A stretch of 64,000 bases of DNA from Eledone cirrhosa (lineage: Eukaryota), in assembly GCA_964016885.1 (NCBI GenBank), contig OZ024741.1, positions 226,362,001 to 226,426,000 of the forward strand, in the 5' to 3' direction. Positions 2,803 to 63,855 of this stretch are shown one piece after another. Positions within the stretch are counted from its first letter, which is position 1. Each line of letters begins with the position of its first letter. The translations under genes were made by a program, and so were the position numbers. The notes under the pieces were generated by a model. The model did not search any database, had not been told where the DNA came from, and saw nothing but the letters and a program-made list of their open reading frames with translations.

Positions 2803-4451
2803 TTGTTAGCCACAATATATATAATATATAATATATATATATGCTAGGCTCACTTACATGTAAATATCCATTAACAAATGTATATACATGCATACGCACA
2901 CCTAAATGTATGTTTGTGAGTTAGTGCACATGTTTATTTATATGTACAGGTTTACAATATTTTTCATGTCATCCAATTGGGATTTTGGTTGATTGTTCAT
3001 ACGGGCGCCTTGAGAAGAAACAACTAATAGTTTTTTATGATTGTGTTTTCACGTAATCACAGTATGTATGTATGTATGTTCTGGTTTTATAATGTTATAA
3101 ATGTTTACCAATAGAGAGAGAGAGTCGGTTTTTAACATAGACACAAGACTCATTGGAATTTTGACAACATCACCTTGGTAGATGTGTTGGCGTGTCTGCA
3201 TGCGTGCGTGTGTGTGTGTGTGCAGGTATGGATGTTATTGTATGTATGGATGCGTATGTTCTGAGTCATATGTCTGTATGTCCTGCAGGGTGTCGAAAAT
3301 CACCCTCCTCACCAAGTAAACTTGGTGGGGATGCAGGTTGTACTGGGTTACATGTTACTCGACATAAGAGTCAACGGCCATCCGAAAGTGTACCGCGCGG
3401 TTAAACCACTGGGAGTGAAGGACCCCTAGCCTTTCTCGGAGCATTCTTGTAGGAGACGGCAACTCAGGAAACTGGGATAACTCCAATATAAAACCTGCGG
3501 CTCAGTAGTTACCGATGATGTTGATTTTTTCTTCTTTTTAGGTTATAGCTACTGTCGCTCAGAGAGTGGGATTGGCTCAGTGCACAGTCTTTCCTCACTT
3601 TAAAAATATCTTCACGCACAGGCATTGCACGATAGAATTAATTAATAATTATTAATAATGGTGTATCGTGCAATGGCCATACTCGATAACGAGAAGGCAG
3701 CCATCATGCATGTATGTATTTATGTATGCATGTATGTACCCGTAACTCCTGATGGAATCGTTGAGGTGCCGTAGTGACATACGACGTGTCTTACGCATAT
3801 TAAACCTAGCAGAGCCCATCTTTCTCCAGATCTCAACACAGCCGATATCTTCCAGAGGAGAGGAAATGAGAAAGAGATATAGAGGAAGAATCAACCCCAA
3901 TGGGTCCTTTATTATTCGCCTTTTGGGGATTTGAACTCAGAGCTCAGAAGCCTGGCACTAACATCCGACGTTCTGACGACTCTGCCATTCGCAGTATTTT
4001 AATGAATTCGTAATTGGTCGAGTCTTATCTCAAACTTTCCATGTTATTATCAAGTATTTCTTTATTTCTTGGTTTCCAACTATATTTCGAAAGTCAAGAG
4101 ATGTTTTCCGTGTGTCAATGGCGGGATTAACTTCTACAGTTGTATTTGACTTTTAATGAGTGTTTGTTCGTTTAGATGATTTATTCATTAATTACATGTG
4201 TATACTCGTGTATCCCAGTGGTTACTGTAGTTAGGGAATCAATTATATTATTTTTTATACCCATCAAGTACTGTGATCGATGTAATCGACTTTCCTTTTC
4301 TCTTAAAGTTTTTGGCCAGCATTAGAAACCATTATTTCTTTTCTTTTTTGTGATTGTCAAGTACATAACTTGCGCATGCATATATATTGTAGTGACCACT
4401 GTTGTTTTTGTTGTTGTTTAATCCCGGGTCAACTCTGATTGATCAGTATTA

Positions 4452-19183: not shown

Positions 19184-19334
19184 AAGAGAGAGAAAAAAAT
19201 AAATAGTTAGGCAGACAGACAGATAGATATAGGAATGTGTATATACACAGGCGTGCGCGAGTATATACACTCAACTGTTATACATATATTTATGTAATAC
19301 GTAAGAAATAAAGGAACTGAAAACACTAACTGAC

Positions 19335-20267
19335 CTGTCTCCATAGTGATAGCTGTATGCTGTCACTAGCGGTAGTTTCCGAACTGAGCAGACCTGCCAC
19401 GATTAAATGACCACTGGGTAATAGAATTCCCAACATCACCGAAACCATCCTCTGCATGGGCATCAGTGTATAGACCATAAACACAACAAACGCAACCTCC
19501 CATACTCCTTGGATGGGTAGAGACAAGTACTTAGTATCCGGGTAGTAACTGTTCTGTAGAACTAAGCCAATGTTGCCGGGGACAGGGGTCGAACCGGCAT
19601 CATCCTCGTTGACAACATTGGTGACCGCTTCGTCTGTGAGACCGAACCGATTCTTTCCAGTCGCCTTGTTAGATGTAAAGCCGGACGGAAAAGAGGATTT
19701 TAGTACGGAAGGGGTTTCGGTACCCCCTTGCTCGTTGCTTGTAGGGTTAGCGTTGCGGTTGTTGTATTGGTGGTTATGGTTGGTTGGATGCTGTTTATAA
19801 GCTGTGTTACTGTGTCCTCTGTCTTTGTTGTTGAAGTCGGTTTGGCTTTCGAGAGGGGGTCGATCGCCGAATGGAATTGGGAAAGACATCGTGGCAAAAA
19901 TGACGAGGAAAAACATAAGGACGTAACATAGGGGTATGAAATACGTTTCTTCCATGTAGCGGGTATTGATGAAGACGAAAACAGCAATGAAGAAAAGGCA
20001 TTGTAATACCAAATAGATGCTCCGAATGGTCGGATAAAGGAGATAGAATAAATTCAGGGCTGCCAAGCAGATTGTTAAAAGTATAAACACGGCCAACATA
20101 TAACCAATACTGGTTTGTTGTAGTTTGTATATATATCTTTTGTATAACTTTTCCAGTTCAACATTATCAAACTCATACCGATTTAATAGTCGTTTTAATC
20201 TCTTTTTCCTCCGTGACATATTATAATCCGTTGGGTTTTTCCCTTGGGTTCCACCGTTTCCAGTCAT
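19335..20267 (-). CDS. First coding exon of a transmembrane adenylyl cyclase (rutabaga/ADCY1-ADCY8-like; N-terminus plus TM1-TM5)
   Basis: ORF has FDNVELEKLYKRYIYKLQ (adenylyl cyclase N-terminal F-x-x-x-ELE-x-LY-x-RY motif), five hydrophobic segments and QGVWEVAFVVFMVYTLMP...GILLPSGH (TM4-TM5 signature). It ends WRQ|GTCAGT at a phase-0 donor (plus-strand 19334/19335). No downstream exon recognised in 1-19334. Confidence 0.9.
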
Positions 20268-20870
20268 TTTATTATGACTATTGCTTATAATTGTAGTTAA
20301 TGTTAATTCTTATTACTGAGGCATTTCGAATAAGAAATAAAATATATCCAGAGAATAAAGAGGAAAGAAACAGCAGTAATAATAATAATAATGATAATAA
20401 TAATAATAGTTATAATAAGATAAGTAACAAATTTCCAATAAACAGAAAGAGAAAAAATAACAGAAAAGATTTGAAACAAATCAAAAAACAAAACAAACAG
20501 GGAGATGATGATGACTAAAGTTCTCCTCCTTCAACTTCACCTTTCTACTCTAAGTATCACTGCAACCGCCACTCCAAGTGCCACTCATAGTTGCACTTGG
20601 AGTTACTAGTGGTAAAGGAAGTCGAAAGATATGCCCTTGCAGCTACACGGATTACAGGATCAAAATATGCCCCTGTCTCTTTGACGTCCATTCGAAAACA
20701 GAAAAAAATGTAAAAAAATAAACTGAGAAAAGGGTAAAAATAAAGGATCAAATGAAAACAAAATTCCCAAGATATGTACGCTGACCTCTTTCTGTTTCTC
20801 CAGTCACTCTATTTATAGATTCCCTTCTCCTTGCCCTACCACCACTCCCGTGCCTCCTCTCTCCCCCTCC

Positions 20871-28198: not shown

Positions 28199-28387
28199 TT
28201 GTTACATAATAAGGTTGTTTCCGAGGCAATCCAAATTGAATCGACATGGGAACGGACGAAGTTCGTGCTTTGGGGTTTTTCATCCGTTCCCTTGTGAGTA
28301 CCAATTCACCCCCACCGGTCTGCGCAAGCGCATGTCCGAAGGAAGTTGACCATTAGCACCGCAGATTTCAACGAAATATATATATGA

Positions 28388-28436
28388 GATTCTACAGGAT
28401 TAGAACTGTTTCATTCTTTAGAAATCATCAGGAATC
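28388..28436 (-). ncRNA. Type-I hammerhead ribozyme in a fold-back element (28381-28562)
   Basis: Minus strand gattc-CTGATGA-t-ttc(taaa)gaa-t-GAAA-cag..ct-GTA-gaatc. The adjacent plus-strand arm lacks the CTGATGA core. Confidence 0.8.
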
Positions 28437-28561
28437 ACTTCTAAAGAATGAAACAGTTCTAGTCCTGTAGAATCTCATCTATATTAAAACTTTTATACTC
28501 TGCAATGTATTGAGTACCTTACTTACTGTGGTTACCTCCGATTCAACCCGGAATAACGTAC

Positions 28562-32077: not shown

Positions 32078-32416
32078 ATACGATATTAATAAATGGAAAC
32101 TATATTTATAAAACCATATTTATTTCATTATACATATTTCAGGGATACCAAATTAAATTATGGTATGCCTTCATCAGACAAAATACAATATATAACAGTT
32201 TTACAAATAAGCTTTGACGTACCCTTTCAAAATGCCACCATTATTTTTGGAAGCCATGGTTGCATTTTAAAAGAGTACGTCAAAGCTTATTTGTAAAACT
32301 GTTATATATTGTATTTTGTCTGATGAAGGCATACCATGATTTAATTTGGTATCCCTGAAATATGTATAATGAAATAAATATGGTTTTATAAATATAGTTT
32401 CCATTTATTAATATCG

Positions 32417-32419
<3 letters not shown>
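32078..32419. mobile_element. Fold-back element with two divergent HHRs (32121-32185 minus, 32312-32376 plus)
   Basis: tattttgt-CTGATGA-aggcatacca..tggtatccct-GAAA-tatgt-ATA-atgaaata and its mirror copy. A tail fragment of this family also lies at ~7990-8065. Confidence 0.8.
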
Positions 32420-33488: not shown

Positions 33489-36113
33489 ACACACACACAT
33501 ACACATACATACACTCAGAAAATGGTGAGGTTGTAAGATAGAGGGTGTTTGAGAAGGTGGACGTAAACATACTCTCCTGCTGGTTTTATTTCATTAGCTG
33601 ACCTTTGATGAATTTATAATGGCATAGCTGAATCAACTCTTCCAAATCCATAAAGAATATCTACAAATTTCTATATCAAAGTTGAATTTAGGTGCTTGTC
33701 TGGGTTTTGATGAGGTGTAAGATACTTGTCTTTTCATAAGAATGGGGTGACAGGAAAAAGAGAATATATATATATTGTGTGTATATATATATATATGTGT
33801 GTGTATAAATATATGTGTGTGTATATATGTGGGAGATATATATAATATGTATATAGGATATGTATAGTGTATATATAGGATGTATATGATAAATGTGTGG
33901 GATATGTATAGGATATATATATGGTATGTATATAACATGTATGTATGGTATATGTGTAAAAAATATGTATATATGGGGTGTTTATAGGATATATATATAT
34001 ATATATATATGTGTATGTAGAAAAAAATATATATGTGTGTATATGTGGTGTGTATATATATATATATATGTATATAAACTGCATAAATCAGATGCCAACA
34101 GAAAAAAGCGGAATAAATCTTCCAACCATCTCAAGCAAGTGACAAAAAAAGGCAGTGCTTGAATTTGAACAGTGCATAGGAACCAATCCTGACAGTAAGG
34201 CGTTCTGGAAATATTTACATTCAAAGCACAGACCTCACTCTCCAGTTGATCCTCTGCGCAATCCCCACACAAGCCAGATCACTGACGATCCCAAAGAATG
34301 CGCAGAACTCATTGCTGAATGCTATGCAAGCATTTTTACTGTTGAAAACCAGAATGTACCATCTCCACCATCTCTAACATCAAATTCCATAACAACTATG
34401 GAATTTACACCTGCAATGTTGCGGCGTCACCTTAAGAATAAGCGCAACTATGCCTCCCCTGGTCTTGATGGTGTTACATACCTGCTTCTCAAACGTGGCG
34501 GGGATTTCCTTTTACACCAGCTTTCTTTCTTCTTTCAATACTGTCTCAATAATGGTGCTACTCCGGAGCAGTGGAAAACTGCCAGTGTCGTTCCCCTGTT
34601 CAAAAAGGGCAACCGCACGTCACCTGTCAACTAACGTCCAGTCAGTCTTACTAGCTGTATTGCCAAACTGATGGAATCCTGAGTCAGAGAAACACTTTGG
34701 AACTTCTGGAGCTCTCACAGCCTCATCCGGCCCTTGCAATTTGTATTTATCCCTAATTCCAGCTGCTGTGATCAGCTTATATAATTCCTTGAAGACATTA
34801 CCCGGATCACTGACTGTGGGTCATGGGTGGATGTTGTTTACCTTGACTTTGCTAAGGCTTTTAATTCTGTGCCACACAAAAGACTTATGGCGAAACTCTC
34901 TGCAATGGGGGTGAGGGAGGATCTTTTTAACTCAGCCGAAAAGAGGTAGTCACGGTTCTAGGACAGCATTCTTCACCATATGAGATGTCATCTGGTGTAC
35001 TACAGGGATCTGTTCTTGATCTCCTTTGGTTTGTGGCATATATTAATGACATAGATGCCAACTTAAAGAATGCCACGGTACTGAAATATGCAGATGACAT
35101 CAAGCTGTACCTTGAAATCAAAAAGACTGATCCTGAAACTAGAACTCTTTTCTACAATCAGACCTGGACACAATGTAGCAATGGATCACAGACTGGCAAC
35201 TGAAGCTGGCTGTGAACAAGTGTACCACCATGCATTTTGGGAGGAAAAACCCAGCGTCCACATACTCCCTCCACAACACTGATATCAAAAGTGAACGTGA
35301 CCTGGGCATTACTGTCAGTAGCGATTTGCGTTGGACAAAGCATGTCTCTAAGATTGTCAAGAAGGCCGAGGGTGTCTTGGCATCACTCAGCAAGACCTTT
35401 GTTAGCCGCTCTCCAGCCATCTATTTAAAGCTGTATAGAGCTATGGTACGACTACACTTGGAATTCGCATCGTCAGTCTGGAACCCCTATTTGGCTCAGA
35501 ACATTGACCTCCTGGAAACTGTTCAGACAAATGTTCCCAAACTATCCTTCTTTTCTCTTTTTCCTGTCCTCTTTTTCCCATTCTTATGAAAAGACAAGTA
35601 TCTTACACCTCATTAAAACCCAGACAAGCACCTAAATTCAACTTTGATATAGAAATTTGTAGAAGATATTTTTTATGGATTTGGAAGAGTTGATTCAGCT
35701 ATGCCATTATACATTCATCAAAGGTCAGCTAATGAAATAAAACCAGCAGGAGAGTATGTTTACGACCACATTCTCAAACACGCTTATTTACAACCTCACC
35801 ATTTTCCGAGTGTATATATATATATGTGTGTGGGGGGGGAGGGTACGTGTGAGTGTGTGTGTGTATACTTTAATTCCTCCGGACCTTCATCATCATCAAC
35901 AATCATTAACACCACACGCCACACCCCAGACACATCCAAATCTATCTTATATATAGTCACACATTTCAACACAACCTGATCTCATTTTGAGACGAATGCG
36001 AGAAAGTTCTCCAACCCAAGTTAACCAGGAATCTCTAAAATTCTTCCCACCGAAGTTAACAAAGAACTTACTGGATCTACCAACTCATAATATTATAATA
36101 TTATAATATTATA
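32858..36113. repeat. Long inverted repeat pair (32858-33763, with an internal tandem duplication, vs 35553-36097) bracketing a CR1 fragment
   Basis: gagttggtagatccagtaag..aaatgagatcaggttgtgttg..gtcttttcataagaatggg is mirrored at 35553-36097; (tattataa)n at the outer ends. Confidence 0.85.
34143..35530 (+). pseudogene. CR1-clade LINE ORF2 reverse transcriptase fragment, decayed
   Basis: KAFWKY, SPGLDG, WKTASVVPLFKKG, RPVSLTS, DVVYLDFAKAF, SGVLQGSVL, YADD, RLHLEFASSVWNPY; stops and frameshifts. Confidence 0.9.
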
Positions 36114-36176: not shown

Positions 36177-36236
<60 letters not shown>

Positions 36237-36240
<4 letters not shown>

Positions 36241-36429
36241 GTTATTCCGGGTTGAATCGGAAGTAACCACAATAAGTAAGGTACTCAATACATAGCAGAG
36301 TATAACAGTTTTAATATAGATGAGATTCTACAGGACTAGAACTGTTTCATTCATTAGAAATCATCAGGAATCTCTGAGATTCCTGATGATTTCTAATGAA
36401 TGAAACAGTTCTAGTCCTGTAGAATCTCA

Positions 36430-36436
<7 letters not shown>
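36237..36436. mobile_element. Fold-back element with back-to-back HHRs (36322-36374 minus, 36375-36429 plus)
   Basis: tgagattc-CTGATGA-tttc(taat)gaat-GAAA-cag(ttctagtc)ct-GTA-gaatctca; palindrome centre at 36375; tail is an inverted copy of 28480-28562. Confidence 0.88.
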
Positions 36437-36528
<92 letters not shown>

Positions 36529-36550
36529 ATATAGATAGATAGATATAGAT

Positions 36551-36819
36551 GTGGTTACACAACAGTTAGTTCACCATACCGAGAACAATTGTTTCACCTT
36601 AGCGGATCCTCAGCTCGGTATGGCCATGGTTATAGGAGCAGGAAGGACAACGGTTGTCCTTCCTGTTCCTATAACCATGGCCATACCGAGCTGAGGATCC
36701 GCTAAGGTGAAACAATTGTTCTCGGTATGGTGAACTAACTGTTGTGTAACCACTTCTACCTAACTCGTCCCATGGACTGAGTGCTCTACCACTACAGATA
36801 TTACCTTCCAGTGTTCCAC

Positions 36820-36822
<3 letters not shown>
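36551..36822. mobile_element. 203-bp palindrome with two divergent HHRs (36574-36623 minus, 36681-36730 plus) plus a PLE pseudo-LTR tail
   Basis: ccataccgag-CTGAGGA-tcc(gctaa)ggt-GAAA-caatt-GTT-ctcggtatgg (10-bp stem I); one mismatch between arms; tail 36781-36822 matches 52543-52588. Confidence 0.88.
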
Positions 36823-36876
<54 letters not shown>

Positions 36877-36884
36877 CAGAGGCC

Positions 36885-37157
36885 ATATTCAGTTGATTCA
36901 GGTATATTTAAATTTCCATTATACATATTTCACTGAGGACTATCAATTATGATAGCCTGAGTCATCAGACGGCAAAACCTAAAATAAACATAGAGTTCTT
37001 AAGAAACCTTTCAATTTGGAAAAATCTATATGTTTCAAAGGAACTTTCTATGTTTATTTTAGGGTTTGCCGTCTGACGAGCTCAGCCTATCAAAATTGAT
37101 AGTCTTCACTGAAATATCTATAACGGAGTTTCAAATAAACCTGAATCAACTGAATAT
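36885..37157. mobile_element. Diverged fold-back element with two HHRs (36916-36972 minus, 37069-37126 plus)
   Basis: ccgt-CTGACGA-g..ctatcaa/ttgatag..ct-GAAA-tatct-ATA-acgg and a mirror copy with several substitutions. Confidence 0.78.
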
Positions 37158-38129
37158 AATACTCCGTCTTGTACCATTTATACAGGTCGTTTCTTTTTAT
37201 CTGCTTCACAACCGAGAGAGCATGGTGTGGTCCGCGTATCCCTGTTCTGGTAACCACTTATATATATATATATATGTGCAAATAGTTATTTTGATATAAC
37301 TTGCTTGGCTTATAGACAAGATTCGCTCTCTTTCTGTATTGACTAAAGATTTGGATCAGCCAAGGATATGGTAGATATTTCCCATTCTTGCTTCTATGAC
37401 TAACCATAATTAATGAGGGTTTCCATCTTGATATTGCGAGGATAAAGTCGGCTGATTGCAGTTATTTTATCACACACCATATTCAGATACCAATAATCTA
37501 TATTTGAGTGTGGGTGCATGTGTGCGTGTGTGTGTGTGTGTGTATGTGTGTGTGTGTGTGTGTGTATGTGTGTGTGTGTGTGTGTGTGTATGTGTGTGTG
37601 TGTGTGTTAAGTTATGCACATACTTACGCATATATGCATACACACACACGGGCGCATACATACCTATACATAAATGTGTGTGCGTGTGTATATAGATATA
37701 CAGAGAGAGAGAGAGAGTAAGTTTGAATAACATAACTGAATAATGAAACACATGTAAAGATGTATAATTAAATAAAAACAATTTCTAACTAGGCCTTGTA
37801 TGTTTTTCCTAACAAATTTATTTATACGCATTCTGTGAATTATTGGAAGCTGAAACTGATCATGGATTAACACTTGGAATATCTGGCATATTGAGGAGTC
37901 CATCTGATAAGTTGTCACTTCATTAATAGTTGCAGAATCATTCTACAAGTTTGATTTGACCAACAAAAGATAACAATTACTTTATCTTCTTGTCTGTTTG
38001 TGTGCATGTGTGTGTACATGTGCGGTGTGTGTGTGTATGAGTATGTGTGTGTGTGTGTGTGTGTGCGTGTGCGTGTATGCGCGTGTGTGTGTTTGTGTGT
38101 GTTTCTTTATATATATATAAATATGTATC

Positions 38130-42088: not shown

Positions 42089-42147
42089 ATTATTTGCATC
42101 TTACAACTGTTTCGATATCGATCACCTCATATATATATATATAATAC

Positions 42148-43203
42148 ATGTAATCTGAGTTTTTCGAATATTAATAATAACATTCGATTCGTTTGCAATT
42201 ATGCAAACAAGCCTCAATTTTATAGCCATGTCAGTAAAATGAGCACTTCATTCTTGCTCTTGTGCTGGCATGCGAACAGAACTGCAGACACTTATGTTTC
42301 TGGGTATCATCCTTCATCAGTACAGCTCACTGTTCACCTGCCAAACTGTCAGAGCTAGTGAAAATATATGCTATTTTCAAAAATACCTAGAGACTGATCA
42401 GCCTGGTTTGCATATTAGCAGACCGGCTGATTAGTGAGATCTGCATATTAGCAGATCCACTGATCAGCCAGATTAGCATATCAGCACAGACTGGTCAGTC
42501 AGTTTCCTGTATACGAGCGATAAATGGCCGGCTTTGCCAAATTCAAATAAAAAAGAAAATTTCGCTCTACATGATGAAGGGTGATACCCAGAAACATTAG
42601 TGTCTGCAGATCTGTTAGCATGCCAAAACAAGAGCAAGAATGAAGTGTTCATTCTACTTACATGGCTATAAAATTGAGGGTTGTTTGCATAATTACAAAC
42701 GAATCGAATGTTATTATTAATATTCGAAAAATCTCAGATTACATTTATTGTATTCAGCCAATTTTCTTTTTTATTTGAATTTGGCAAAGCCGGCCATTTA
42801 TCGCTCGTATACAGGAAACTGACTGGCCAGTCTGCTGATATGCTAATCTGGCCGATCAGTGGATCTGCTAATATGCAGATCTGACTAATCAGCCAGTCTG
42901 CTAATATGCAAATCAGTCCGATCAGTCTTTAGGTATTTTTGAAAATAGCATATATTTTCACTAGCTCTGACAGTTTGACAGGTGAACAGTGAGCTGTACT
43001 GATGAAGGATGATACCCAGAAACATTAGTGTCTGCAGTTCTGTTCGCATGCCAGCACAAGAGCAAGAATGAAGTGTTCATTCTACTGACATGGCGATAAA
43101 ATAAAGTACCAGTAATGCACTGGGTGATTGCTGGCCTTGTGCCTAAAGTAGAAACAATTATTAATATTCGAAAAACTCAGATTACATTTATTGTATTCAG
43201 CCA
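42148..43203. mobile_element. Non-coding HHR element: inverted copy plus partial tandem (428-nt period), retrozyme-like
   Basis: Minus copy 42148-42561 (HHR 42279-42328). Plus partial copy from 42570 (core damaged). Plus copy 42761-43203 (HHR 42991-43040), interrupted by a SINE tail. Confidence 0.85.
42991..43040 (+). ncRNA. Canonical type-I hammerhead ribozyme (GUC)
   Basis: gagctgta-CTGATGA-agg(atgata)ccca-GAAA-ca(ttag)t-GTC-tgcagttc; 8-bp stem I. Confidence 0.88.
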
Positions 43204-44810: not shown

Positions 44811-45107
44811 ATATATATTAGATTAGAGAAAACATCACGAGCGCTCTGTCTCAAAATTATTTTTGAAAAGCATTAGAAATGCGCAAACGGTAAAAACTTA
44901 AAACTAAAACTGAATACTAACCAATACTTATTACTAATTTATACTTATTCCTAATTAAACTATTTTTCACTGGGAAAAATTTGTCAGCATTTTCTTTTCC
45001 TTTTACTAATATATATATATATATATTATTATTATGTAAAAACAACATAAGGCAATTATTCCATTTAGGTTTTTTAAGATCCAAATTCAATAAACAAACC
45101 AGGATTT

Positions 45108-45167
45108 TTTCATTCTGAGGATTGAAAGCAAAACCTTTTGCTTTTAAGAAACCACTGGTAAATGGAA
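45108..45167 (+). ncRNA. Type-I hammerhead ribozyme in a fold-back element (45024-45270)
   Basis: tttcatt-CTGAGGA-ttgaaagcaaaa(cc)ttttgcttttaa-GAAA-cc(act)g-GTA-aatggaa; its 3' flank is mirrored at 45024-45078. Confidence 0.82.
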
Positions 45168-45446
45168 TAATTGCCTTATGTTGTTTTTACATAATAATAA
45201 TTAAGCTCTGTTGCTTACATAGAGCACTCTTTTTTCCTGGACTTTTCCGACGGAATTACTTCATTTACACATATATATATATATATACATATTTGTAGTA
45301 AGGCTGCTTGGATGCGTCCATAGGCGGTATGCCAGTTGAGCACTCTATGCCCCATCGGTGCAGAGTATAATAATATGGAAAACGAAGAATCAGTGATGCA
45401 TCGAAACACTGATTCTTCGTTTTCCATATCATATATATAAATATAA

Positions 45447-51904: not shown

Positions 51905-54890
<2,986 letters not shown>

Positions 54891-55096
54891 GTAAATATTT
54901 AGAAAAACGTTGCAACCGAAGGAAAACAGGAAGACGATACTTGTTCTTTGTAGAAATATTCAGGTGTTGTTTCTGCATGTTGATTATAAGTCTATAGAGT
55001 GCTCAATTTTTATATATTTCATACATATTTATCCTTATCGGGCCCTCTTCAGATTTTTAGGCTTCACATTTATTATTATTACTATATATATATATA

Positions 55097-55475
55097 TAGT
55101 AATAATAATAAACGTGAAGACTAAAATCCAAAGAGGGCTCGATAAGGATAAATATACATCAAATATATAAGAACCCTAGAGCAAATATTTATTAAAATAA
55201 CAGACTAAAATTTAAGCAAAGAATCGCTGCTTTCACCCTTAACGGGATCTTCTGAAACTAAAAAAACAATCTGTGAACGCAGAAGTAAATATTTCGAAAA
55301 ACGTTGCAACCGAATGTAAACAGGAAGACGATACTTTGGTCCGTGAAGACATTCCCTGGCAATCAACGAAAAAAAAGCAGATGAAACGTCGTTATGTGGA
55401 GTGATGATAACACATACACGCAAAGACAAAACCACGTTTATGATGTAAATGAAGTCGTAGACTAATATTCTATTT
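55097..55475 (-). mobile_element. Non-coding element with a variant-core HHR (55209-55259); second copy 59487-60070
   Basis: Minus agttt-CAGAAGA-t-ccc(gttaa)ggg-t-GAAA-gca..tg-CTT-aaa(t/c)t. Tail fragments at 23450-23491, 55010-55083 and 60103-60141. Confidence 0.72.
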
Positions 55476-56621: not shown

Positions 56622-56628
<7 letters not shown>

Positions 56629-56885
56629 GGTATTATAATGAAATAGTATGATAGAATATTGAATTCTAAGTGTTAATTGAACAAGTACTTTCATGCTTTC
56701 GAAATCTTCAGGTTCATGATATGTGGTGACAGTCAAGTTTGCAATTTTCAACTGTTGAAAATTGCAAACTTGACTGTCACCACATATCATGAACCTGAAG
56801 ATTGCGAAAGCATGAAAGTACTTGTTCAATTAACACTTAGAATTCAATATTCTATCATACTATTTCATTATAATACCATTATATA
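56622..56885. mobile_element. Near-perfect 264-bp palindrome with two minimal HHRs (56678-56716 minus, 56790-56828 plus)
   Basis: tgaac-CTGAAGA-t-tgc(gaaa)gca-t-GAAA-gta-CTT-gttca; palindromic stem III aagtactt; one arm mismatch. Confidence 0.88.
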
Positions 56886-61759: not shown

Positions 61760-63855
61760 AACACGACTAGTTACAAAATTACAAGTATAATCCATTAATG
61801 GAACAGTAAATATATGTAAAACATTCCAAAAATTCTGCATCTAATAACTGCATATACACATGTACAGATACAAAGCATATACACATGCACACATACAACT
61901 CAAAACATCCACATCCACACATACAGTAACATCCATACCTGCACACACAAGCATTCATGTAGACATGCATACATATCTACCTAGTTGATGTGTAAATTCC
62001 AATGAGAGAGTCTTGTATCTACGTTAGAAACCGACTCTCTCTCTATTAGCAAAAATTTGTGAAATTATAAAACCAGAAGAACATACATACATATATATAT
62101 ACATTTATGGACGATCTGAAACTCTATGCCAAGAACATGGATGGGATGAAGAAAAATCTTGACCTGGTTAGAACGTTCTCAAAGGATATAGGAATGGAGT
62201 TTGGCCAAGATAAATGCTCATACATGACTGTAAAGCGGGGAAAAACAACAACCCAATCTAGCAACATTGTCATCAATGGCTTTACTGTTTCACCGATATC
62301 TGATGAGGACTGCTACAGATACCTGGGGATAGATGAGAACATATCCTATAATGGTATCTGTAATAAACAACGCGTAACCAGGGAATACTACACCCGATTA
62401 AGAAAGATCTGGTCATCGGAACTCTCTGCGCAAAACAAAACAGTGGCTCACAATGTGCCTGTCCTAACACCAACGTTTGGAATAATCAATTGGACGATAG
62501 ACGAAATCCGAGCAGTTGATGTTGGAACTCGAAAAATACTAAACAACACCGGAAACTTCCACATCAACAGTGACATAGACCGCCTTTACTTGAAACGTAA
62601 GCAGGGAGGCAGAGGCCTAACATCAGCCCAGACAACATTTGAATGTCGCATCATATCTCTCCGACAACATCTACGAACCTCGAAGCGTAGGAGCCCGTCT
62701 CTCGAGCAAGTCTATGTGCTTGAAACAGATAAGATCATGATAGTTGGGAAGGAACTCCTCGAGAGATATTCCCTGTGTGATAATCAAAAACTCACACCCA
62801 GGGAAGTCGCTCAGAAGTATCGCAGTGAATCCATGGATGAAAAACTGCATATTTATCAGCAAAAAATTATGCATGGATATGTTGCCAGAGAGCTCCAGAG
62901 TGAGAGTAATATAGATAAGGAAAGTAGTCTATCTTGGACCAACAACCGCTATATTAGCTTCCACTTTGAAGGATACGCTTTTGCAATCCAAGAACAGGAG
63001 ATTAACACGAAATACCTGATTCACAAAAAAGATAGGGATGCAGGCAAAACACCTAGATGTGATAACAAGTGCAGACTCTGCAGAACTAACATCGAGGATA
63101 TAACCCCTGTCATCAGCAGCTGTCCAAAGATGTCATCGCGGTACTATCTACCTATGCGGCATGAAGTAGTGGCCAAAACACTGTACAATGCAGTTCGTAA
63201 AAAAGATAGCCCCGATAATAAACACATTAAAAGCTACAACAATGTGGAAGACATCCATGTACATAATATGAAAGAGTACTGGTGGAATGTTCCAGTAAAA
63301 ACCCCAATAAAATGCAGGCATAACAGACCAGATATTATGCTATGGGACAGGGAGAAGAAAACATGCACAGTAGTGGAAATTAGCTGCCCAGCAGATGCCA
63401 ATATAATATCAAAGATTAGTGAAAAGGAGAATATTTATGCAGAACTGATGAGAAATTTGCAGATACTCCACACTGATTACACCTTCAGATTTATGCCTGT
63501 GATTATTGGGGCACTGGGGTATGTTAGTAACTGCCTCAATACAAATCTTGAGAAGCTATGACTCACAGGCACAGAAAGAACACAACTAGTTAGGAAATTA
63601 CAAGTACAATCCATTAATGGGACAGTAAAAATATGTAAAACATTCCAAAAATGTTGCATCTAATAACTGCATATACACATGTACAGATGTAAAGCATATA
63701 CACATGCACACATACAACTCAAAACATACACATCCACACATACAATAACATCCATATCTACACATGTAAATTCCAATGAGAGAGTTTTGTGTCTATGTTA
63801 GAAACCGACTCTCTCTCTATTGGTAAAACTTTGTGAAATTATAAAACCAGAAGAA
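61760..63855 (+). mobile_element. R4/Dong-like non-LTR retrotransposon with restriction-like endonuclease, 5'-truncated, preceded by a tandem 3'-end copy
   Basis: ORF 62107-63561: MDDLKLYA, GGRGL, CRLC..S.C zinc knuckle, RH, NRPDI..D..VEIS..K. 61760-62081 duplicates 63579-63855. Both 3' ends run into (CATA)n. Confidence 0.88.

What the first reader, a model, noticed from the sequence alone, without database searches (positions are those of the whole stretch)
36237..37157. Three consecutive twin-ribozyme palindromes from three different families
Seen: within 920 bp there are three fold-backs separated by (TA)n, each with one HHR per strand pointing outward (six ribozymes). Arm identity ranges from perfect to clearly diverged, suggesting insertion at different times into one microsatellite. 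Inference: a transcript from either strand would carry ribozymes, but each could be masked by its own antisense arm.
Basis: partly seen in the sequence, partly recalled or inferred. Interest (0 to 1): 0.75.

Follow-up and report, generated by a model that had tools for sequence, protein, structure and literature searches.

The report
Three stacked Penelope retrotransposon stumps
The three mirror-image repeats are real but ordinary here: each is a short back-to-back pair of ends of a Penelope-type jumping gene, three families having landed in the same TA repeat, and their self-cutting RNA motifs are likely silent passengers, although the ends may record how these elements copy their RNA.

Summary
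In detail: three fold-backs, six outward-facing type I hammerhead cores, three unrelated sequences, (TA)n between them. They are not a ribozyme device. Each is a truncated Penelope-like element (PLE) end plus its inverted copy. Families A and B link to ORFs with Hydra-clade motifs; family C fits by architecture only. In all three, the two arms stop at two fixed outer points (the PLE 'tail'), so each palindrome has one tailed and one tail-less arm. An even 600-kb sample held 18 such hammerhead fold-backs (about 90,000 per genome), and other runs of three exist, so the trio is expected. C is older than A and B; A and B cannot be ordered. Folding predicts complete masking, and C's cores have decayed. 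What remains of interest is the likely mechanism: twin priming from both nicked target strands, and for family A run-off at a predicted capped RNA start at helix I. Earlier notes of this scan reached the same reading on other DNA of this genome. No long reads or raw RNA reads were on offer.

The parts
36177..36236 (.). (TA)n tract at the tailed end of insertion A
36237..36374 (-). Family A tailed arm (-7 to +131 from CUGA): hammerhead core at 36367, predicted cut after GUA at 36329, then the one-sided tail 36237-36313. Starts with a G where long copies have C.
36376..36436 (+). Family A tail-less inverted arm (-7 to about +53): core at 36383, predicted cut after 36421; 61 of 61 identical to the other arm
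36432..36545 (.). (TA)n and TAGA tract between A and B
36546..36651 (-). Family B tail-less inverted arm (about -41 to +67): minimal hammerhead core at 36613 with palindromic helix III, GUU triplet
36653..36822 (+). Family B tailed arm (to +131): core at 36691, predicted cut after 36720, tail 36759-36822
36823..36870 (.). (TA)24 between B and C
36873..37020 (-). Family C tail-less inverted arm (to about +110): core at 36968, one G lost at the core/stem II border, 11 differences from the family majority in 155 nt
37021..37258 (+).
37259..37274 (.). (TA)8 at the tailed end of insertion C

Best explanation
The three palindromes are three separate short insertions of Penelope-like retrotransposon ends, each one tailed arm joined head to head to one tail-less arm, that collected in one (TA)n tract, and their hammerheads are likely masked passengers. 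Shown: family identity, fixed outer ends, variable inner ends, shared variants between arms, high genome-wide frequency. Inferred mechanism (about 0.6): the element's GIY-YIG nuclease nicks both strands of (TA)n; one 3' end primes reverse transcription at the distal start (+131 in A and B), the other at an AU-rich proximal start (+53 to +60 in A, +67 in B, about +110 in C); both cDNAs read through the uncut hammerhead towards the RNA 5' end and are joined head to head by microhomology. Inferred for family A (about 0.6): the usual stop at -6 is the capped RNA start, so palindrome 1 is two run-off cDNAs. C inserted first; A and B came later in unknown order.
For: Family A: L310 has two hammerhead pLTRs around an open 713-aa ORF with RIRWR, DKT, YRDD, CxCx5C, IVY..YIG, CxxC and CxH. 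Family B: copies continue upstream into RT (YRDD), CSCRKPEAC, VIY..YVG, CGLC and CPH; A and B proteins are 40% identical. These motifs match the Hydra clade description (PMC8557442 section 11). Copies picked by their tail only (29 per family, window locus left out): an adjacent inverted arm in 19, 16 and 13 of 29; its outer end at the proximal site in 18 of 19, 12 of 16 and 9 of 13. In 11 of those 39, the tail-less arm reaches more than 50 nt further 5' than the tailed arm, which a simple fold-back cannot make. Arms share minority variants: A 44 against a shuffled-pair mean of 13 (max 23 in 200), B 25 against 4 (max 12), C 34 against 17 (max 31). Family A 5' ends lie at -10 to +10 in 19 of 29; 4,448 A-type fold-backs turn within a gap of 14 nt or less at the core, control 1; TATAAA sits at -36 in 41 of 49 long copies; an extra G at -7 in 12 of 17 junction arms. 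Frequency: 18 fold-backs in 600 kb, about 90,000 per genome (95% range 53,000-142,000), about 40 triples within 1 kb expected by Poisson alone; L136 is another run of three families. Inversion joints of families A and B occur in raw Illumina reads of other samples. In vitro, a PLE protein cuts and extends both strands, starts at two sites that bound the tail, and does not need ribozyme cleavage (PMC11167929).
Against: No read or contig spanning this locus was found: the centre of palindrome 2 (36628-36647) had no cover in X1 or X4 contigs and almost none in RAD reads. Family C has no demonstrated protein: its GIY-YIG-like relic scored no better than shuffles (69 of 200 as high; no tblastn hit). 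Many palindromes are symmetric, which fold-back of one cDNA explains equally well, and later deletion could create the asymmetric ones. Shared variants could come from conversion between arms after insertion. The extra G could come from snap-back on helix I or from a rare natural variant (L056), and the -5 AG also reads as a splice acceptor. Head-to-tail joints in the same family start near -20 to -15, not -6. No RNA data. Pfam gave no hit above cut-off for either protein.
Confidence: 0.85

Rival explanations
1. Same PLE origin, but the second arm is made by fold-back: one cDNA self-primes at its 3' end, copies itself, and joins the target at an AT-rich site. The hammerhead helix I, not the RNA start, sets the turning point.
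For: Many centres are symmetric with 0-5 nt overlap. Arms share private variants, including four A>G changes in both arms of L097. Family B 5' ends also cluster near helix I (10 of 29 at -10 to +10).
Against: 11 of 39 tail-less arms reach beyond the tailed arm, and three loci (L113, L152, L167) have non-overlapping arms. Family C's commonest stop is near -151, far from its hammerhead.
Confidence: 0.3
2. The palindromes are selected regulatory or RNA-processing modules: paired ribozymes switched by their own antisense arm, or hairpin sources of small RNA acting on the elements or on the nearby adenylyl cyclase gene.
For: Helix I shows compensatory changes between family A and a sister subfamily (covariation 0.137, 1 of 500 shuffles as high; 10 related sequences). 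Long hairpins would be substrates for editing or dicing if transcribed (inference). An adenylyl cyclase N-terminal exon lies 16 kb away.
Against: The covariation belongs to the parent elements, not to this locus. C's arms decayed independently (15 differences, none shared). Centres vary between copies. The promoter-like region upstream of A is missing here. Tens of thousands of like copies exist.
Confidence: 0.05
3. One or more palindromes are assembly or library fold-back chimeras.
For: Palindrome 1 is perfect. The centre of palindrome 2 was not recovered in X1 or X4 contigs. No long reads could be laid.
Against: A chimera would mirror flanking DNA, whereas each inverted arm stops at the family's fixed proximal site. 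Palindromes 2 and 3 have mismatched arms. Inversion joints of the same families recur in raw reads from two or three other samples.
Confidence: 0.04
4. The palindromes are MITE-like units that move as whole hairpins.
For: 4,448 A-type fold-backs of near-equal size.
Against: Centre sequences differ from copy to copy, outer ends are unequal (one tail), and copies grade into long PLE copies.
Confidence: 0.05

Closest known systems
Hydra clade of C-terminal-endonuclease Penelope-like elements (Craig et al. 2021, PMC8557442; passages plus sections 3 and 11 read)
   Same: RW[K/R], DKT, CxCx5C linker, CxxC and CxH around the conserved E and N, no CCHH between the GIY and YIG parts, hammerhead in the pLTR, (TA)n targets, inverted 5'-truncated copy, one-sided tail.
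   Different: Tails here are 64-125 nt, against 30-40 bp in the paper. Family A's unit is 5.2 kb with a long microsatellite-like 3' region (Hydra generally under 3 kb). Hammerheads have U.U at 10.1-11.1. No tree with reference Hydra proteins was built. Family C is unassigned.
Poseidon PLE of Anolis (PAc) in vitro (Frangieh et al. 2024, PMC11167929; parts 1-2 of 4 read)
   Same: Two internal RT start sites bounding the tail, downstream of a hammerhead near the ORF start; both target strands cut and extended; AT-rich target; ribozyme cleavage not required.
   Different: Different clade. The paper saw no strand difference in start site, whereas here most palindromes pair one distal with one proximal end. 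In family A the ORF starts after the tail, not inside the hammerhead.
Minimal PLE hammerheads (Cervera and de la Pena 2014, PMC4209133; parts 1-2 of 4 read)
   Same: Type I motifs in pLTRs, palindromic helix III in B and C; the paper already notes dual motifs 100-700 bp apart on opposite strands in Schistosoma; low activity in vitro.
   Different: The paper's conserved G10.1-C11.1 pair is U.U in A and B and G.U in C. Family A has a longer helix III with an 8-nt loop.
L1 twin priming (recalled; only search listings seen)
   Same: Second target strand primes reverse transcription and gives an inverted 5' segment.
   Different: L1 arms do not overlap; here both arms usually cover the same RNA segment, from two fixed starts.
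Metazoan non-LTR retrozymes (PMC7229834 passages; bioRxiv 10.64898/2026.07.22.740005 part 1 of 5 and passages)
   Same: Type I hammerhead repeats related to PLE pLTRs; family A also forms head-to-tail arrays elsewhere.
   Different: The three units here are inverted pairs, not tandem arrays, so they are not retrozymes.

Membership tests
EN+ Penelope-like element (families A, B) | Single ORF with RT followed by C-terminal GIY-YIG endonuclease | tested here: met
   A: open 713-aa ORF in L310. B: RT and nuclease pieces in L186, L187, L189. Atlas neighbours carry GIY-YIG, RVT_1 and HTH_animal. Pfam GIY-YIG only E 0.008, below cut-off.
EN+ Penelope-like element (families A, B) | pLTR partial tandem with a hammerhead in each repeat | tested here: met
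   A: L310 hammerheads at 4343 and 9518 flank the ORF. B: only the 3' pLTR after the ORF was seen.
EN+ Penelope-like element (A, B, C) | 5' truncation with adjacent inverted copy and one-sided tail | tested here: met
   19, 16 and 13 of 29 copies with inverted arm; fixed outer ends.
EN+ Penelope-like element (family C) | Linked RT and GIY-YIG ORF | tested here: inconclusive
   Only a frameshifted nuclease-like relic by eye; not significant against shuffles; no RT found in 25 loci.
Hydra clade (A, B) | DKT, RWK, CxCx5C linker, CxxC and CxH, no CCHH | tested here: met
   A: RIRWR, DKT, CNCLNKEAC, CDLC, CMH. B: CSCRKPEAC, CGLC, CPH, no cysteine between VIY and YVG; B's N-terminal motifs were not recovered.
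Hydra clade (A, B) | Insertion into (TA)n | tested here: met
   3' flanks and inverted-arm flanks are TA tracts in most copies listed.
Hydra clade (A, B) | Placement in the Hydra clade of an RT tree | not tested
   No reference PLE proteins were fetched.
Type I hammerhead ribozyme | Core CUGANGA, GAAA, UH with helix I open | tested here: met
   All six; compensatory changes in helix I across A and its sister subfamily.
Type I hammerhead ribozyme | G10.1-C11.1 closing a stable helix II | tested here: not met
   U.U in A and B; G.U in family C, further damaged in both window copies. No Rfam hit.
Type I hammerhead ribozyme | Self-cleavage | not testable with these tools
   Needs an in vitro assay.
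Non-LTR retrozyme | Head-to-tail tandem monomers each with a hammerhead | tested here: not met
   The three units are inverted pairs.

The most novel reading that the evidence does not exclude
The stumps are a genome-scale record of the PLE integration step: a PLE protein dimer primes two cDNAs on one capped, uncut RNA from both nicked target strands, one at each of two fixed start sites, and in family A the commonest product is a strong-stop-like pair that runs off the cap at hammerhead helix I. The same family also spawned a satellite of over 1,600 78-nt hammerhead monomers bounded by the proximal start site.
Probability: 0.45. Interest if true: 0.55.

Novelty: new member of a known kind. 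Interest (0 to 1): 0.3.

Why it matters
As a locus it matters little: it is a pile-up of common insertions. It is a warning that paired ribozymes in this genome are a default product of PLE insertion, about one every 33 kb. As a class, the ends give testable predictions for how PLEs form inverted pLTRs and tails, which Craig et al. 2021 list as unresolved: two starts used on opposite strands, one template, no ribozyme cut, and a predicted RNA start at helix I. An open full-length family A copy exists for an in vitro test.

Tried and rejected
Rfam scans gave only hairpin-type miRNA matches below gathering scores and no hammerhead. Pfam and PDB sequence searches of the PLE proteins gave nothing above cut-off. 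The nuclease-relic test for family C failed. The 10- to 20-fold depth step at the family A hammerhead first looked like support for the 5' hot spot; it is confounded by the 78-nt satellite and by sister subfamilies and is not used. One search counts only one of two upstream variants (840 matches), so no genome-wide ratio is drawn from it. My first notes called the B nuclease 'CCHH'; it is the CxxC/CxH arrangement. Ribozyme cleavage as the cause of the turning point: no family A 5' end among 29 lies near the cut (+38) and 3 of 29 in B lie within 8 nt of it, so rejected as the main cause. Splicing at the -5 AG: most junctions keep that AG or its G, so disfavoured, not excluded. No fold, complex or homolog search was run. 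Supplements were not read; reference alignments in the supplement of PMC8557442 could bear on the clade call.

Full report
Observation. The region holds three inverted repeats separated by TA tracts, with arm identities of 61/61, 104/106 and 108/123. A motif scan found all six type I hammerhead cores, pointing away from each centre; 50 shuffles of the window averaged 0.34 cores. The same scan found more than a dozen other cores in the window, several in inverted pairs. Rfam's hammerhead models did not match. The three sequences are unrelated at the DNA level. I call them A, B and C and number positions from the C of CUGA.

What the families are. The window lies in G000, a 3.0-Gb genome; each arm has hundreds to over a thousand first-look candidates there. 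Family B copies run upstream into an RT with YRDD, a CSCRKPEAC linker and a GIY-YIG-type domain; a further B fragment lies in this window at about 53600-54890. Family A has a full-length copy in L310: two hammerhead repeats 5.2 kb apart around an open 713-aa ORF that begins shortly after position +131. Its motifs (RIRWR, DKT, CxCx5C, CxxC, CxH, no CCHH) match the Hydra clade as described in section 11 of PMC8557442. A and B proteins are 40% identical over 256 residues. Atlas neighbours carry GIY-YIG, RVT_1 and HTH_animal families; Pfam-A itself gave no hit above cut-off. For family C I found only a frameshifted nuclease-like relic that did not beat shuffles, so C is assigned by architecture alone.

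Anatomy. To avoid selecting for palindromes I searched with the tails only and mapped 30 of the 40-41 reported matches per family, then left out the window's own locus. These are the best-scoring matches, so they lean to young copies. The tailed arm ends at +129 to +133 in A, +130/131 in B and about +212 to +235 in C, usually against (TA)n. An adjacent inverted arm was present in 19, 16 and 13 of 29. Its outer end fell at +53 to +66 in 18 of 19 (A), +64 to +67 in 12 of 16 (B) and +105 to +110 in 9 of 13 (C) (numbers typed; L105's 5' end was reset from -30 to -4 because the alignment had run into TA; L159 and L160 look like one duplicated locus). All three window palindromes follow this rule. 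It is the inverted 5'-truncated copy with a one-sided tail described for PLEs (PMC8557442, passages).

How it likely forms. Frangieh et al. (PMC11167929, parts 1-2 of 4 read) showed in vitro that a PLE protein cuts and extends both target strands, starts at two RNA sites that bound the tail, and does not need ribozyme cleavage. The fixed outer ends fit those two starts. In 11 of the 39 palindromes whose second arm ends at the proximal site, that arm reaches over 50 nt further 5' than the tailed arm, which fold-back of the tailed cDNA cannot give unless a later deletion trimmed it. The two arms share minority variants far more than shuffled pairs (A 44 in 39 pairs, shuffled mean 13; B 25 in 28 pairs, mean 4; C 34 in 26 pairs, mean 17; a few pairs are duplicates or mis-pairs). 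In the window, B's arms share two private changes. One template for both arms is therefore likely, but conversion after insertion would look the same. I put twin priming at about 0.6 and fold-back at about 0.3. The term comes from L1 work that I recall; I saw only search listings.

The centre of palindrome 1. Family A 5' ends lie between -10 and +10 in 19 of 29 copies. An exact pattern finds 4,448 fold-backs of A and its sister subfamily with a gap of at most 14 nt at the core, against 1 for the control; the window's own gap is 17 nt and is not among them. Tailed A arms number at least 7,151. Long copies have TATAAA at -36 in 41 of 49 (39-40 in 6, none in 2), followed by an initiator-like CCAGATT with A at -6; the 30-nt spacing is what I recall for polymerase II promoters. 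Of 20 listed junction arms with -6 to -1 intact, I dropped three with natural upstream sequence; 12 of the remaining 17 have G at -7 where long copies have C (9 of 14 without three that microhomology could explain). Both window arms have it. A G opposite the cap is a recalled property of reverse transcriptases. Against: helix I snap-back gives the same G, L056 shows a natural variant with it, tandem joints start near -20 to -15, and in Drosophila Penelope a splice acceptor maps to this same place (PMC4209133). B's 5' ends are more diffuse (10 of 29 at -10 to +10) and the window's lies at about -41; C's commonest stop is near -151 and the window's at about -55.

Is three in a row special? In 60 evenly spaced 10-kb stretches a strict scan found 47 cores, 11 outward pairs and no inward pair (three shuffles: 0, 1, 3 cores). 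An inverted-repeat scan found 18 fold-backs with a hammerhead-like core, or about 90,000 per genome, and 9 in this window. Poisson spacing alone predicts about 40 triples within 1 kb. Of 87 focal loci, 2 had two further fold-backs within 1.5 kb; L136 is three families split by TA tracts, and L222 in the even sample has two split by (TA)37. The trio is uncommon but expected.

Age. A's arms match the family majority at all 60 positions; B's differ at 2 shared positions plus a few others; C's differ at 11 of 155 and 8 of 115 with none shared. C is older than both (p 0.003, 0.004); A and B are not separable (p 0.53).

Ribozymes. Helix I covaries between A and its sister subfamily (10 related rows, so few independent events), which suggests selection in the parent elements. 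A and B have U.U instead of G10.1-C11.1; B has the palindromic helix III that Cervera and de la Pena link to dimer-dependent, weak cleavage. Folded alone, helix I forms in A+ (0.85-0.96), B+ (0.68-0.72) and B- (0.92-0.98), poorly in A- with its tail (0.08) and not in C; in the whole palindromes it is 0.00 in all six. Activity is untested.

Artefact check. No long reads were offered. The centre of palindrome 2 was not covered in X1 or X4 contigs, and its private variants were rare or absent there; this may be polymorphism, a filter, or error. Other inversion joints of B (X21, X22) and A (X21, X22, X23, X1) do occur in short-read data. The one-sided tails and mismatched arms argue against chimeras.

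Print and earlier notes. Five searches found the general architecture in print, including opposite-strand hammerhead pairs 100-700 bp apart, and no paper on twin priming of PLE palindromes; the library lacks most subscription journals. Earlier notes of this scan reached the same reading on other DNA of this genome; I had noted the PLE, tail and RNA-start readings before that call, and took the pointer to the Hydra clade and to shared A>G marks from it or alongside it. Verdict: real, new members of a known kind, interest 0.3.

Noticed in passing
L320-L326 (G000:C28 from about 30,497,000): A satellite of 78-nt monomers made of the family A hammerhead alone (about -20 to +56): 1,619 exact junction matches, all on one strand; 32 intact cores in the 3 kb of L323. 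Shorter than the 150-450 bp repeats quoted in PMC7229834. The joints also appear in reads of three other samples.
   Followed up: partly
L316 (G000:C1:83676000-83685999): Seven head-to-tail units of about 1.07 kb of family A 3' sequence, each with a hammerhead; retrozyme-like.
   Followed up: no
L310:4343-9518: Full-length family A element with an open 713-aa ORF; 24 genomic copies are identical over a 241-nt stretch, so the family is probably very recent.
   Followed up: partly
L097: Four A>G changes on the sense strand shared by both arms of a family A palindrome; looks like a copied edited RNA.
   Followed up: partly
window 19326-20309 (-): Adenylyl cyclase N-terminal coding exon (Pfam AC_N, E 4.5e-11); the trio lies 16 kb upstream of it on that strand, in an intron or outside the gene (not determined).
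   Followed up: no
window 28378-28484, 32078-32419, 42144-42748, 45026-45200, 55007-55173, 56627-56879: Six more hammerhead fold-backs; the one at 28378 is family A-like.
   Followed up: no
window about 53600-54890 (+): Broken family B ORF fragment (RT end, linker, nuclease) lacking its hammerhead end.
   Followed up: partly
window 36685 and 36619: Both arms of palindrome 2 carry a private T>A that turns a U.U mismatch of helix I into a pair; possibly a templated correction.
   Followed up: no
window about 34100-35530 (+) and 62071-63561 (+): LINE-type reverse transcriptase fragments, by sequence resemblance and a weak RVT_1 hit for the second.
   Followed up: no
L197-L256: Many hammerhead families in this genome lack the G10.1-C11.1 pair (U.U, A.A, A-U seen), and the strict scan implies over 200,000 cores per genome.
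   Followed up: no
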